This document shows, in pieces, positions 35,210-39,540 of a stretch of 64,000 nucleotides of DNA. Numbering within the stretch: the stretch's first letter is position 1; each line of letters starts with the position of its first letter. The stretch is from the NCBI RefSeq assembly GCF_009914755.1, contig NC_060932.1. One strand, 5' to 3'. Both the position numbers and the translations under genes were made by a program. The notes under the pieces were generated by a model. That model was not told the origin of the DNA and ran no database searches. It was given only the letters and a program-made list of their open reading frames with translations. This stretch comes from the human T2T-CHM13v2.0 reference genome, Homo sapiens.

Positions 35210-35614
35210 GTGTGCATCCTCGAGTGTGAAGAGAAGGTCTTCCCCAGCCCCCTCTGGACTCCATGCACCAAGGTCATGGCCAGGAGCTCTTGGCAGCTCA
35301 GCCCTGCCGCCCCAGAGCATGTGGCGGCTGCTCTCTACCAGCCGAGAGCTTCGGAGATGCAGCATCTGCGGCGAATGCCCCGAGTCCGGAGCTTGTTCCA
35401 GGAGCAGGAAGAGCCCGAGCCTGGCATGGAGGAGGCTGGTGAGATGGAGCAGAAGCAGCTGCAGAAGAGATTTGGGGGCTTCACCGGGGCCCGGAAGTCG
35501 GCCAGGAAGTTGGCCAATCAGAAGCGGTTCAGTGAGTTTATGAGGCAATACTTGGTCCTGAGCATGCAGTCCAGCCAGCGCCGGCGCACCCTGCACCAGA
35601 ATGGTAATGTGTAG
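35210..35614 (+). CDS. PNOC: Prepronociceptin exon 3 coding part, aa 43-176 (exon continues to 35661)
   Basis: Polypyrimidine tract plus TTGCAG| acceptor, in frame with exon 2 (42+134 = 176 aa). Encodes KR-FGGFTGARKSARKLANQ-KR. Donor TGA|GTGAGT at 35661. Confidence 0.98.
   Translation: MCILECEEKVFPSPLWTPCTKVMARSSWQLSPAAPEHVAAALYQPRASEMQHLRRMPRVRSLFQEQEEPEPGMEEAGEMEQKQLQKRFGGFTGARKSARKLANQKRFSEFMRQYLVLSMQSSQRRRTLHQNGNV
35375..35464 (+). other. PNOC: Nocistatin peptide-coding segment (MPRVRSLFQEQEEPEPGMEEAGEMEQKQLQ)
   Basis: 30 codons between the RR and KR dibasic sites, ending in the conserved EQKQLQ motif. Confidence 0.85.
35471..35521 (+). other. PNOC: Nociceptin/orphanin FQ 17-mer coding segment (OPRL1/NOP ligand)
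   Basis: Exact FGGFTGARKSARKLANQ, flanked by KR on both sides. Confidence 0.99.
35528..35578 (+). other. PNOC: NocII / orphanin FQ2 17-mer coding segment (FSEFMRQYLVLSMQSSQ)
   Basis: Lies between the KR and RRR basic sites. Confidence 0.9.
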
Positions 35615-36759
35615 CCGGAAGGGGCGCTCCTCCCAGCTGTACCGGCCACTGCAACCCATGAGTGAGTTGGGCACCAATAAGCTGGGGGCAAGGAGAGACC
35701 TCACACACCAACTGTCTTAGCCTTGCTCCCAGGCCTAGAAGCACATTCATCTCCCCGCCCCCTCCCCACTCCACACACACACACCCCGCAAGGAGTCCAG
35801 CCCACCCTTTCTCTAGGCAGCAGATTTTCCTATGATTGCACCTTGAAGCTGACCACTTCCGGCTAGAGACTGGTTACCATGGGGATAATAGTAGTATGTT
35901 AAGATAACTAATTCCTCTATCACTCCCCAGGAGCTTAGTTACTATGGGGACAGTTAAGTGGACCAATACGCCCATCCAGTTGCCACAGCAACCAGTCAGC
36001 TCACCTTTCCTCGAGATTGTCTCTCTAAACACCAAGAGTGGGACCTACTCTTAGCCATTAGCAGAGTCCAATTACCACAGCTATGATGGTGCTATTTCAT
36101 CTTCAAAGACGGCTTACCTATCCCCTCTCCTTTCCCCAGCTCTCAGGGTGCCTGGCTCCATGGAAACATTAAAGTTTCCCATTTTACCTGGACAAAGAGT
36201 TCCTGTTAAGATTAGGAGTTGTGGTTTCTGCTCTTCCTCCTTCCACAAGCCATTTGTCCATCCTGCCACCTTGCCAGAGAGGGACTGATTCCTTGTGGTC
36301 AACGGTATCATTACTGAGCAAGACGTGGAGAATTTGGTCCAATGGACCTAGTAGCTACTAGAATATGGACTAAAGGGGTTCATCTTCTTTCCTCCATTTG
36401 GCTTCTTTCCAGCGTGCCATTTTTGTTTTGGTTTTGTTTGCTTGCTTTTATTCCTCTCTTTCTTCCTTGTTCTCTCTTTCTTCTGCTCTGTTCCTATACC
36501 CACAGGCACCTTATACAAGTCCACATGTCTCATAATATACATCAAATACCCTAACTGATTGCCTGTTCATTCAAAACCCAACTTTCCTTAGGATATCAAC
36601 CAATACATCACTTTGAGTGGCATTGGCAACCTAGCACAGTAGAATTTTCTGAAAATTTAGGAAACTCCCAACCATCAAGGCTATGTGCCTTAATTTGTAT
36701 ATGGGAATATGATCATCTGCAGAGTCCCATACGTCTCCTTAAATAGCTAAGAAACTTGC

Positions 36760-37150
36760 CATATTCATCCATTTTGCATTGCTACGAAGGAATACCTGAG
36801 GCTGGGTACTTCATAAACAAAGTTTATTTGGCTCACGTTCTGCAGTCTATACAAGAAGCATGGCACCCGCATCTGCTTCTGGTGAGGCCCTCGGGGAGCT
36901 TTTACTCATGGCAGAAGGCAAGGGGAGCTGGCGTGCCACATGGCAAGAGGGGGCAAGAGGGGGAAAAGGGGAGGTCCCAGCCTCTTTAACAACCAGATCT
37001 CCCACGAACTCATTACCATAGGGTGGGCACAAAGGCATTCCTGAAGGATCCACCCCCATGACCCAAACACCACCCACTAGGCCCACCTCCAACATTAGGG
37101 ATCACATCTCAACATGAAATTGGAAGAGGACAAACTTCTAAACTGTATCA
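36760..37150 (-). mobile_element. MST (ERVL-MaLR) solo LTR in PNOC intron 3
   Basis: gcattgcta.gaaggaatacctgaggctgggta...ggcagaaggcaa...ggatccacccccatgacccaaaca...tgtatca. Confidence 0.85.
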
Positions 37151-38231
37151 TTGTCCTAACACAAAGAACCAGTCAGATCATCAAAATCACCCCAAAACAT
37201 TACCCAAGTGGGGCTTTTCCCTGAGTCCGAGCATAAGAGAAAAATGTCTGCATGTGCTATTTTAAGTTGCGTCCCATGTGTCAGAGGTAGCCGTGTCACT
37301 AATAACCTTCCTTGATGATCTATTAGTACATATGCTAATGTTTGGTGCCCACACTTTAGCATGGAGACAGCCCCTTTGCAGGTAGGCCAACATGTTCACC
37401 ACAGGCCTGTTACCAAATATGGACACGTGTATTAAGTTGTGAAGAGAAAGCTGATGTGTTTATTTTAGCAGGATGACTCATCTCCAAAGGCCCCAAATTA
37501 ACCTGCACTGCTTTTGAAGTCATACTCACTCTTGGATCCTTCACAAGCCTCCTATTTCTTTCTAACACATATCTGCACAGCACCTAACAGTAAATCATTC
37601 AGAAGTAGCATGGGTTGAATTCTTTCAAATCTTAAAGACATTCTTCTTTAAAGTGGCTCTTCAGGGACACTGAAGCTCATGTCTAATTCTGAACGATGGT
37701 AATGTTCTTTACCTAAACACAGTTGAAAATCAGGCCCATTAACAGGAATCCATTTATTTTTTAAAAAATGATTTGAGCCTCTATCCAGGCAATTGGTTTT
37801 TCTAATCTTCTATTATGCTTCCAACTGAGAGGCACTGAAACAAAGCCAGTAAGGAGCTTCTGTCTGTGGCTCTGCTCAAATGTCAAGTTCTGGATGGAAA
37901 CTGGAAACATTAACCAGCTCATTTGGGTATTATTGATGACTCTCCTTTCTCCTTCTGCAACCATCTCTCTGCTTCTTTTCCCCCAACATGCACAGTTGGT
38001 GAGTTCCAATATGGATATTTATGAGTCTATAACAGCCGGCTTCAACCTTGTTTTCATCCACATACACACACCCCAACCTGCCCTACACATGATGGAGATG
38101 TCTCCATCTTGGGGGACTCTTGTTACCAATGCTGTCCTTGACTTCTAAGATACCTAATACTAATAGACATGGAGAAGGCTGGGAAGAAGTGGGGCCACCT
38201 TACACTGGAATGGGATAAAGAACCCTATTCA

Positions 38232-38543
38232 GGGCCGGGCGCGGTAGCTCATGCCTATAATCCCAGTGCTTTGGGATGCCGAGGCTGGTGGATCACCTGA
38301 GGTCAGAAGTTTGAGACCAGCCTGGCCAACATGGTGAAAACCCGTCTCTACTAAAAATACAAAAATTAGCCACTTAGCCGGGCGTTGTGGTGGGTGCCTG
38401 TAGTCCCAGCTACTTGGGAGGCTGAGGCAGGAGAATCGCTTGAACCCAGGAGGCGGAGGTTGCAGTGAGCCGAGATTGTGCACATTGCACTCCAGCCTGG
38501 GCAACAAGAAAGAAACTCCATCTCAAAAAAAAAAAAAAAAAAA
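38232..38543 (+). mobile_element. Alu
   Basis: Full Alu; TSD AAGAAC(C/A)CTATTCAG. Confidence 0.9.
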
Positions 38544-39108
38544 GAACACTATTCAGAAAGTGTAATGATGTCCTAGGAAGGAAAGGTGTTGGGGTGCAGG
38601 CCCACCTCTAGACAGAACTTGTCACAGCTGGTCTTAGGGTTCTGCCTTCCTTTCCCCTGACCCTATACTACCTTCCTCTTTTCTGCTACCCTTAGACTTT
38701 GACCCTTCTAGGCAATGGAAACTGAGCACATTCATTCGTGGTCAGGTTATCAGTGCCATCAGGCTCAAAGAGCACTTGCAAAGAAAAGAACTGTAAAACA
38801 AGGGCACTATTTCGCATGGGCTCCGAATACCAGCAAGAACTGTTCCCCGGGAAGGGGCTTGCCACTGTGCCTATCGAGTCACAGCCTACAGACCTCCCGT
38901 TTAGTCTATTAGTCCAGCCAGTAGACCCGGGGCTGGGGGAGCAGATGTGCGGAGATGCTGAGGACCCCTCTGGCTACGTTAGGAACGATTTACTTGGGTT
39001 GATAGCTTTTCTTTGCCTCCCTTTCACTGCTTCCGTCTCTAGGGGGAATAGAAAAGGGTCAGAAAAACCATCAGGTTTGCCATTTTTTAACCATTTCTGT
39101 CTCCCCAG

Positions 39109-39540
39109 GCGTCCAGGTGATCCCCCAAACAGCATGTGCTCAGCCCCAGACCTGCCGCCTGGGAATCAGGATTCCTTCTTCCCCAAGGCACTGAGCGCCT
39201 GCAGATCCCGCAGGCTTCGTTTGCCTCCAGAACCTTCCCGTCTGATTGTTCCTCCCCAGCCCCCTGGCATGTTTCACCACAACCCTGTTGCTACATCAGA
39301 GTGTATTTTTGTAATTCCTCTAGCTACCATTTCAATAGCCCCATCTCTCCTGCTCACCCGCCTCTTGCCCCTTCTAGGGGCAGGTGAAAGGAATAGGAAA
39401 TTGAACCTGGGGTTTTGACTTGCCACTGCCATAACTTGTTTGTAAAAGAGCTGTTCTTTTTGACTGATTGTTTTAAACAACGATTTCTCCATTAAACTTC
39501 TACTGAGCAAATGGTTAATAAATTGGTTTGCTGTTTTTAA
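39109..39540 (+). other. PNOC: PNOC exon 4 (terminal 3'UTR exon); 3' end approximate
   Basis: Acceptor CATTTCTGTCTCCCCAG| at 39108. Poly(A) hexamers ATTAAA at 39491-39496 and AATAAA at 39517-39522. Confidence 0.85.
39491..39522 (+). terminator. PNOC: PNOC polyadenylation signals (ATTAAA, AATAAA)
   Basis: Two hexamers followed by GT/T-rich sequence (TTGGTTTGCTGTTTTT). Confidence 0.75.

What the first reader, a model, noticed from the sequence alone, without database searches (positions are those of the whole stretch)
35597..39194. Hidden C-terminally extended PNOC isoform: a cryptic donor before the stop codon opens a 27-aa two-cysteine frame in the 'non-coding' exon 4
Seen in sequence: the end of the CDS reads CAG AAT G|GT AAT GTG TAG, so there is a GT donor (ATG|GTAATG) at 35603/35604, 8 nt before the stop. 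Joining it to the exon 4 acceptor (39109) gives G+GC GTC CAG GTG...CAC TGA (stop at 39192-39194). This replaces the terminal NV with VQVIPQTACAQPQTCRLGIRIPSSPRH, making a 201-aa precursor with its stop in the last exon (NMD-immune). Established, but recalled from memory and needing verification: mouse Pnoc has a long splice isoform, N27K, ending in about IQVIPRTACVHSKTCRPGVRIPPSPRH. That tail is also 27 aa, keeps both Cys, and matches 18/27 positions by my alignment. Inference: the human 3'UTR exon retains a coding frame. Cleavage at the RRR after NocII would release a 33-aa peptide, TLHQNGVQVIPQTACAQPQTCRLGIRIPSSPRH, with a possible C-x5-C disulfide loop. This would be a candidate extra neuropeptide that, to my knowledge, is not part of the standard human PNOC annotation. 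The ORF track misses it because it exists only after splicing.
Basis: partly seen in the sequence, partly recalled or inferred. Interest (0 to 1): 0.85.

Follow-up and report, generated by a model that had tools for sequence, protein, structure and literature searches.

The report
Known long PNOC splice isoform
The alternative splice site and the 27-residue tail are really there and conserved in placental mammals, but this long form of the nociceptin precursor is already annotated and was first described in mouse, so only its proposed role as an extra neuropeptide remains open.

Summary
A GT at 35604-35605, 8 nt before the PNOC stop codon, joined to the exon 4 acceptor (39108/39109), keeps Gly174. 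It then reads 27 codons of exon 4 (VQVIPQTACAQPQTCRLGIRIPSSPRH, stop 39192-39194), giving a 201-aa precursor.

It is not hidden. The hub's RefSeq table for this window already lists an exon 35210-35603 in another PNOC transcript. Two protein searches found the same tail in 36 cluster representatives, all named or matched as prepronociceptin. They come from primates, rodents, lagomorphs, bats, carnivores, pangolin, horse, artiodactyls and cetaceans, manatee, sengi and anteater. The tail is 27 aa in 35 of them and 29 aa in one. Both cysteines and the C-x5-C spacing are kept in all 36. Marsupial and non-mammal precursors listed lack it.

An open frame of this length is itself unremarkable: 35% of shuffles reach it. 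The tail is only as conserved as the precursor's spacer regions (0.71 mean identity, against 1.00 for nociceptin). A two-frame codon test was inconclusive. I found no peptide evidence.

Verdict: a real, conserved and already known alternative 5' splice-site isoform, of the mouse N27K type. The claim of an extra neuropeptide is untested.

The parts
25328..25453 (+). PNOC exon 2 coding part: 42 codons covering the signal peptide and the start of the Cys-rich N-terminal domain. Shared by both isoforms.
   Evidence: translation. Coordinates are from the hub gene table.
35210..35603 (+). Exon 3 as used by the long isoform. It encodes the rest of the Cys-rich domain, the nocistatin region, N/OFQ (FGGFTGARKSARKLANQ), NocII, RRR, TLHQN and the first base of Gly174.
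   Evidence: translation and coordinate join. The hub table lists exon 35210-35603 among the exons of other PNOC transcripts.
35604..35609 (+). Alternative 5' splice site GTAATG (context ATG|GTAATG), 8 nt upstream of the canonical stop codon.
   Evidence: It matches MAG|GTRAGT (a consensus I recalled) at 6 of 9 positions.
35604..35614 (+). The last 11 coding bases of the canonical isoform (GT AAT GTG TAG). They are removed as intron in the long isoform.
35662..35667 (+). Canonical 5' splice site GTGAGT (TGA|GTGAGT). It lies 47 nt after the canonical stop codon.
39086..39108 (+). Polypyrimidine tract and AG acceptor of exon 4, shared by both isoforms.
39109..39194 (+). Exon 4 segment that is coding only in the long isoform. 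GC completes the Gly174 codon, followed by 27 codons (VQVIPQTACAQPQTCRLGIRIPSSPRH) and TGA at 39192-39194.
   Evidence: Orthologous tails occur in 36 cluster representatives.
39195..39518 (+). The remaining 3' UTR of exon 4. It holds a conserved block at 39269-39319 and ATTAAA at 39491-39496, 22 nt before the annotated transcript end.
   Evidence: The exon end is from the hub table.

Best explanation
This is the human counterpart of the long (mouse N27K-type) prepronociceptin isoform. It arises by alternative 5' splice-site choice within exon 3.

Mechanism:
- When the spliceosome uses GTAATG at 35604 instead of GTGAGT at 35662, exon 3 ends 58 nt earlier, after the first base of the Gly174 codon.
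- The shared exon 4 acceptor supplies GC, so Gly174 is kept.
- Translation then runs 27 codons into what is otherwise 3' UTR and stops at 39192-39194 in the last exon.

The 201-aa precursor keeps the signal peptide, the six-Cys opioid-precursor domain, nocistatin, N/OFQ and NocII unchanged. Only the C-terminal piece after the RRR site changes, from 8 to 33 residues, and it gains two cysteines spaced C-x5-C.

Status of each step:
- Shown: the splice geometry and frame, and conservation of the tail's length, stop position and cysteines across placental mammals.
- Taken from the hub's table: the existence of an annotated exon that ends at this donor.
- Inferred: that the tail is translated in humans; that cleavage at RRR releases it as a C-terminal propeptide; that the two Cys form an intramolecular disulfide in the secretory pathway.

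I judge the tail most likely to be a conserved C-terminal propeptide extension with no demonstrated signalling role of its own.
For: - Sequence and frame.
- Annotation: the hub gene table lists exon 35210-35603 in another RefSeq PNOC transcript.
-, using the exon 3 product as query: 260 proteins at E<=0.001, of which 120 were listed. In one search, 33 of those 120 carry the tail, 68 end in the short canonical way and 19 are other.
-, using the tail region of P0004 as query: 32 hits among 65 candidates. All are named prepronociceptin and three are new; those three also have 27-aa tails.
- In total 36 representatives carry the tail. 35 tails are 27 aa and one (camel) is 29 aa through an in-frame insertion. 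Both Cys and the C-x5-C spacing are present in all 36.
- Taxa include Afrotheria (manatee P0009, sengi P0030) and Xenarthra (Tamandua P0060) as well as Boreoeutheria.
- In the alignment of 31 full-length long forms, the only invariant tail columns are Ala8, Cys9 and Cys15. The chance that both Cys columns fall among 3 invariant columns of 27 is 0.0085.
- Against bat and pangolin frame-1 translations, the 86-nt segment aligns without gaps, and gaps begin directly after the tail's stop codon.
- Bat two-frame DNA inference gives 5 synonymous and 4 non-synonymous changes in the tail frame, against 2/8 and 1/9 in the other two frames.
- PF01160 matches residues 20-66 of the long-form orthologue.
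Against: - An open frame of 27 codons is not unusual in itself (35% of shuffles).
- Mean pairwise identity of the tail is 0.711. That is no higher than the nocistatin region (0.710) or the N-terminal propeptide (0.732), and far below N/OFQ (1.000) and NocII (0.965).
- The pangolin two-frame comparison gives 2 synonymous and 8 non-synonymous changes in the tail frame, no better than the other frames. It mixes two Manis species.
- Annotation pipelines report a long isoform only where they can build one, so the 36 representatives are an ascertained set. 68 of the 120 listed representatives show only the short end. No long form was listed for mustelids (C-terminus NGHV) or for eulipotyphlans.
- Another block of the 3' UTR (39269-39319) is conserved without being in this frame, so nucleotide conservation alone does not prove coding.
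- I saw no human junction counts. No paper text in the library holds the tail sequence. Supplementary tables, where peptidomics lists usually sit, are not covered by that search.
Confidence: 0.7

Rival explanations
1. The long transcript is real, but the tail has no function as protein. The upstream donor is a tolerated minor splice site. The start of exon 4 is conserved for RNA-level reasons (exon definition, UTR regulation), and the open frame persists because the sequence changes little.
For: - The frame length is unremarkable.
- The tail is only as conserved as spacer regions.
- The pangolin comparison shows no excess of synonymous changes.
- A second conserved UTR block at 39269-39319 shows that non-coding constraint exists in this exon.
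- Both transcripts should escape nonsense-mediated decay, so a neutral by-product would not be removed. The canonical stop lies 47 nt before the last junction. The 50-55 nt rule is established knowledge that I recalled.
- Many lineages are listed only with the short form.
Against: - The stop position and the 27-residue length are the same in 35 of 36 representatives, and the only indel is in frame.
- Both Cys are invariant while most other tail columns vary (p = 0.0085).
- Gaps against bat and pangolin begin right after the stop codon.
- The bat comparison favours the tail frame.
Confidence: 0.2
2. The 33-residue C-terminal peptide (TLHQNG plus the 27-aa tail), or a fragment of it, is released by cleavage after RRR. 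It forms a C-x5-C disulfide loop and acts as a separate signalling peptide with its own target.
For: - An RRR site directly precedes it.
- It lies in a secreted precursor that is processed at basic sites.
- The two Cys and the Ala before the first Cys are invariant in 31 aligned long forms.
- Small disulfide rings are common in regulatory peptides (recalled knowledge, not tested).
Against: - The human tail has no internal dibasic site and no C-terminal Gly-basic amidation signal.
- Sequence conservation is at spacer level, unlike N/OFQ and NocII.
- The AlphaFold2 model gives the tail block-mean pLDDT of only about 46-55 and no confident loop.
- No paper text in the library holds the peptide.
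- Possible absence in mustelids and eulipotyphlans, which I could not check at DNA level.
Confidence: 0.08

Closest known systems
Mouse N23K/N27K nociceptin precursor forms (Saito et al. 1995, 1996, 1997)
   Same: Murid long forms found here (P0074, P0082, P0126) end in a 27-aa tail after TLHQNG, with the same two Cys and the same PRH end. P0074 matches the human tail at 17 of 27 positions.
   Different: I saw only the titles of these papers, in reference lists; the papers themselves are not held. That N27K is the alternatively spliced long form is therefore my recollection. The mouse sequence itself was not among the listed representatives. The human tail differs at about a third of positions.
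RefSeq alternative PNOC transcript with exon 35210-35603 (hub gene table), and predicted 'prepronociceptin isoform X1' records in other mammals
   Same: Same donor, same acceptor and same tail. P0004 (a monkey, 201 aa) differs from the human tail at one position.
   Different: None in structure. The hub table does not give the accession or the CDS of that transcript, and the accession numbers I recalled matched no paper. Most non-human records are computational predictions.
Other C-terminal variants built on the same exon 4
   Same: Marmot isoform X2 (P0086) joins the same tail frame straight after ...KRFS. That corresponds to the human GT at 35532 (TCA|GTGAGT, phase 1).
   Different: That junction removes NocII. 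Bat and pangolin records P0101 and P0100 instead read frame 1 of exon 4 after LQKR and lack N/OFQ. Neither is in the hub table for human.
Small disulfide-ring regulatory peptides (for example the N-terminal C-x5-C ring of calcitonin; recalled, not tested)
   Same: Two Cys separated by five residues in a secreted, prohormone-derived segment.
   Different: There is no amidation signal, no sequence similarity was tested, no receptor is known, and the ring lies in the middle of the peptide rather than at its N-terminus.

Membership tests
Prepronociceptin (vertebrate opioid neuropeptide precursor, PF01160) | N-terminal conserved Cys-rich domain matching PF01160 | tested here: met
   In one search, P0004 (the long-form orthologue, 99% identical over the exon 3 part) matches PF01160 at E = 1.5e-18, residues 20-66. 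The window encodes the same six Cys.
Prepronociceptin (vertebrate opioid neuropeptide precursor, PF01160) | N/OFQ heptadecapeptide FGGFTGARKSARKLANQ flanked by Lys-Arg | tested here: met
   translation. The segment is invariant in 31 aligned long forms.
Long (N27K-type) PNOC isoform | A donor inside the last coding codons of exon 3, joined to the normal exon 4 acceptor in phase 1 | tested here: met
   The hub table lists exon 35210-35603.
Long (N27K-type) PNOC isoform | A tail of about 27 aa homologous to rodent long-form tails, with two conserved Cys | tested here: met
   36 representatives, including the murids P0074, P0082 and P0126.
Long (N27K-type) PNOC isoform | Human transcript evidence for the junction | not testable with these tools
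   Only the hub's RefSeq table speaks to this. No RNA-seq or EST data are reachable here.
Long (N27K-type) PNOC isoform | Protein or peptide evidence for the tail | tested here: inconclusive
   In one search, four tail-derived strings were found in 0 paper texts. Supplements are not searched.
Bioactive prohormone-derived peptide | Excision signals on both sides, or a precursor end plus a basic site | tested here: met
   RRR lies upstream and the precursor's C-terminus lies downstream.
Bioactive prohormone-derived peptide | Core sequence conserved much more strongly than the spacer regions of the same precursor | tested here: not met
   tail 0.711, against spacers at 0.710-0.732, N/OFQ at 1.000 and NocII at 0.965.
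Bioactive prohormone-derived peptide | Demonstrated receptor or activity | not testable with these tools
   This needs experiments.

The most novel reading that the evidence does not exclude
Placental mammals make a fourth PNOC-derived signalling peptide. It would be the 33-residue C-terminal peptide of the long isoform (or a monobasic-cleaved fragment holding the invariant Ala-Cys...Cys ring), oxidised to a seven-residue disulfide loop, with a target other than the NOP receptor. Its supply would be set by 5' splice-site choice rather than by proteolysis. The invariant cysteines, the fixed length and the placental-wide retention allow this reading. The spacer-level conservation and the lack of any peptide evidence weigh against it.
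Probability: 0.08. Interest if true: 0.65.

Novelty: already known. Interest (0 to 1): 0.15.

Why it matters
As annotation this adds nothing new. The exon that ends at this donor is already in RefSeq for this assembly, and the same tail is annotated in dozens of mammals.

It matters a little as a reminder that PNOC's so-called non-coding exon 4 is coding in one isoform. Variants in 39109-39194 may therefore be missense or nonsense for that isoform. Antibodies or reporters aimed at the precursor's C-terminus see only one form.

If the tail peptide proved to be bioactive, it would add a splice-regulated product to a clinically relevant opioid-related precursor.

Tried and rejected
- Primary literature. 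The 1996 JBC paper and the 1996 PNAS gene-structure paper are not held. I saw only the titles of Saito 1995/1996/1997 and Arjomand 2002, in reference lists.
- A 2001 paper on differential splicing of the precursor, which I recall, could not be found. No held paper combines 'Arjomand', 'orphanin FQ' and 'differential splicing'.
- Searches for recalled accession numbers, for tail strings and for splicing of the precursor (followed up) gave nothing on the long human isoform.
I used the tail region of P0004 instead.
- Rfam: no family matched in 35000-39700.
- Pfam: no family matched the tail.
- AlphaFold2 on 31 aligned long forms gave mean pLDDT 53.8, with block means of about 46-55 over the tail, so no usable model. 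I ran no fold search.
- Codon-level selection could only be approximated. I inferred bat and pangolin DNA from two overlapping reading frames, with 12 and 24 possible DNA solutions and the one closest to human kept. The results conflict.
- No mammalian genomic DNA other than the window is reachable, so I could not run dN/dS, PhyloCSF, or donor checks in mustelids and eulipotyphlans.
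Full report
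**Observation**

The window reads CAG AAT GGT AAT GTG TAG at 35597-35614. A GT therefore sits at 35604-35605 in the context ATG|GTAATG, 8 nt before the stop codon. Exon 4 starts at 39109, behind a pyrimidine tract and an AG. Translating 39111-39194 gives VQVIPQTACAQPQTCRLGIRIPSSPRH and a stop.

Joining the annotated coding exons by coordinates gives 176 aa for the canonical transcript. When exon 3 ends at 35603 the product is 201 aa: Gly174 is kept through G|GC and the last two residues are replaced by 27.

**Is it more than chance?**

The open frame is not. From the acceptor, frame 0 of exon 4 closes after 3 codons, frame 1 stays open for 102 and frame 2 for 27. A frame-2 run of 27 or more codons occurs in 7038 of 20000 shuffles of the exon. 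The two donors match the recalled MAG|GTRAGT consensus equally, at 6 of 9 positions each.

**It is annotated already**

The hub's RefSeq table for this window lists 35210-35603 among the exons of other PNOC transcripts. That is exactly exon 3 ending at this donor.

A search with the exon 3 product (P0001) found 260 proteins at E<=0.001, of which 120 were listed. By their C-termini, 33 of the 120 carry the tail, 68 end in the short canonical way, and 19 are other. The 19 are five marsupials, nine non-mammals, two frame-1 variants and three fragments or odd models.

The best hit, P0004, is a 201-aa 'prepronociceptin isoform X1' from a monkey. It is 99% identical over exon 3, stands for 72 member sequences, and its tail differs from the human one at one position.

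A second search scored only residues 160-201 of P0004. It gave 32 hits among 65 candidates, all named prepronociceptin, three of them new. Those three (two Bos, one Meriones) also end in 27-aa tails. No protein of another family shares the tail.

**Conservation**

The 36 representatives cover primates, rodents, pikas, bats, carnivores, a pangolin, Equus, camel, cattle, cetaceans, manatee, a sengi and Tamandua. That spans all placental superorders (the taxonomy is my own knowledge).

- The tail is 27 residues in 35 of them and 29 in camel, through an in-frame insertion.
- Both Cys, with five residues between them, are present in all 36.
- In an alignment of the 31 full-length long forms (leaving out P0086 and the fragment P0105; the three later cattle and gerbil forms were not yet in hand), the only invariant tail columns are Ala8, Cys9 and Cys15.
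- If invariance fell at random, both Cys columns would be among 3 of 27 with probability 0.0085.
- The five marsupial representatives end in short canonical-type C-termini, and the non-mammals end differently. The tail therefore looks like a placental feature, as far as these listings go.

**Limits of that evidence**

The tail's mean pairwise identity is 0.711. That equals the nocistatin region (0.710) and the N-terminal propeptide (0.732), against 1.000 for N/OFQ and 0.965 for NocII.

No other mammalian DNA is reachable here. I therefore inferred DNA for the 86-nt segment from two overlapping reading frames, for the two taxa in which predicted isoforms read both frames of exon 4.

| Taxon | Differences from human (of 86 nt) | Tail frame (syn/non-syn) | Other two frames (syn/non-syn) |
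|---|---|---|---|
| Rhinolophus ferrumequinum (P0055 and P0101) | 10 | 5/4 | 2/8 and 1/9 |
| Manis (two species mixed, P0052 and P0100) | 11 | 2/8 | 5/6 and 2/9 |

All of these figures come, and the codon-level test is inconclusive.

Aligning human frame 1 with the bat and pangolin records shows no gaps across the tail segment. Gaps start directly after its stop codon, and a second conserved block follows at 39269-39319. So there is a boundary at the stop codon, but also non-coding conservation elsewhere in the exon.

The set of long forms is ascertained by annotation pipelines. Mustelids (C-terminus NGHV, which would put a C at donor position +3) and eulipotyphlans appear only with short forms. 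I could not check their DNA.

**Mechanism**

This is alternative 5' splice-site choice in exon 3. The canonical stop lies 47 nt before the last junction and the long form's stop lies in the last exon. By the recalled 50-55 nt rule, neither transcript should be a target of nonsense-mediated decay.

The long precursor keeps the signal peptide, the PF01160 domain (on P0004), nocistatin, N/OFQ and NocII. Only the piece after RRR changes, from 8 to 33 residues. The precursor goes from six to eight Cys, so an intramolecular pair within the tail is plausible; this is inference.

The human tail has single Arg residues but no dibasic site, and no Gly-basic amidation signal at its end. AlphaFold2 on the 31-sequence alignment gave mean pLDDT 53.8, with block means of about 46-55 over the tail, which says nothing either way.

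**Literature**

The library holds no paper that discusses the long human form.

- I saw the mouse N23K/N27K papers of Saito and colleagues only as titles in reference lists. The 1996 paper is not held, nor is the 1996 gene-structure paper.
- A 2001 paper on differential splicing of the precursor is my recollection only (one search found no paper citing it).
- Four tail-derived strings occur in no paper text. Supplements, where peptidomics lists usually are, are not searched.
- The recalled accession numbers occur in no paper.

**Verdict**

The feature is real, conserved in placental mammals, and already known and annotated. It is the human member of the N27K-type long isoform.

Noticed in passing
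window 34817-34958: The hub table lists an alternative exon just upstream of exon 3. A passage in PMC12256348 describes an immune-cell PNOC isoform with a novel 5' exon, 'ImEx2b', upstream of exon 3 and driven by an alternative promoter, citing Arjomand 2002. Joined to exon 3, the PNOC reading frame has stop codons within this exon, so the first usable Met is the internal MARSSWQ. That fits the 111-112-aa N-terminally truncated records that lack the signal peptide, such as P0071 from macaque.
   Followed up: partly
window 35532 and 35439: Two further phase-1 GT sites inside exon 3 would join the same 27-aa tail frame. TCA|GTGAGT at 35532 lies within NocII, and CTG|GTGAGA at 35439 lies before N/OFQ. 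A marmot predicted isoform (P0086) uses the equivalent of 35532, joining ...KRFS directly to the tail.
   Followed up: partly
window 39110-39415: Frame 1 of exon 4 is open for 102 codons from the acceptor. Predicted isoforms in a bat (P0101) and a pangolin (P0100) read this frame after LQKR and so lack N/OFQ. Human has no GT at the corresponding exon 3 position (AGA TTT).
   Followed up: partly
window 39269-39319: A conserved 3' UTR block. In frame 1 it reads MFHHNPVATSECIFVIP and is nearly identical in the bat and pangolin records, while the stretch between it and the tail's stop codon is diverged and has gaps. It is probably a regulatory UTR element.
   Followed up: no
P0112 (unnamed source, 100 aa): This record reads through the canonical stop position (…NGNA followed by 17 more residues), as if the stop codon were lost in that species.
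   Followed up: no
window 39491-39522: ATTAAA at 39491 lies 22 nt before the annotated transcript end at 39518. An AATAAA at 39517 straddles that end, which suggests a second, slightly later poly(A) site.
   Followed up: no
P0031, P0044, P0045, P0089; P0083, P0087, P0095, P0113: Mustelid-type C-termini (NGHV) and eulipotyphlan C-termini (for example NGRL, NRRAQ, KAHA) differ at the residues that overlap the alternative donor. No long form was listed for these groups. This may be lineage-specific loss of the long isoform.
   Followed up: no
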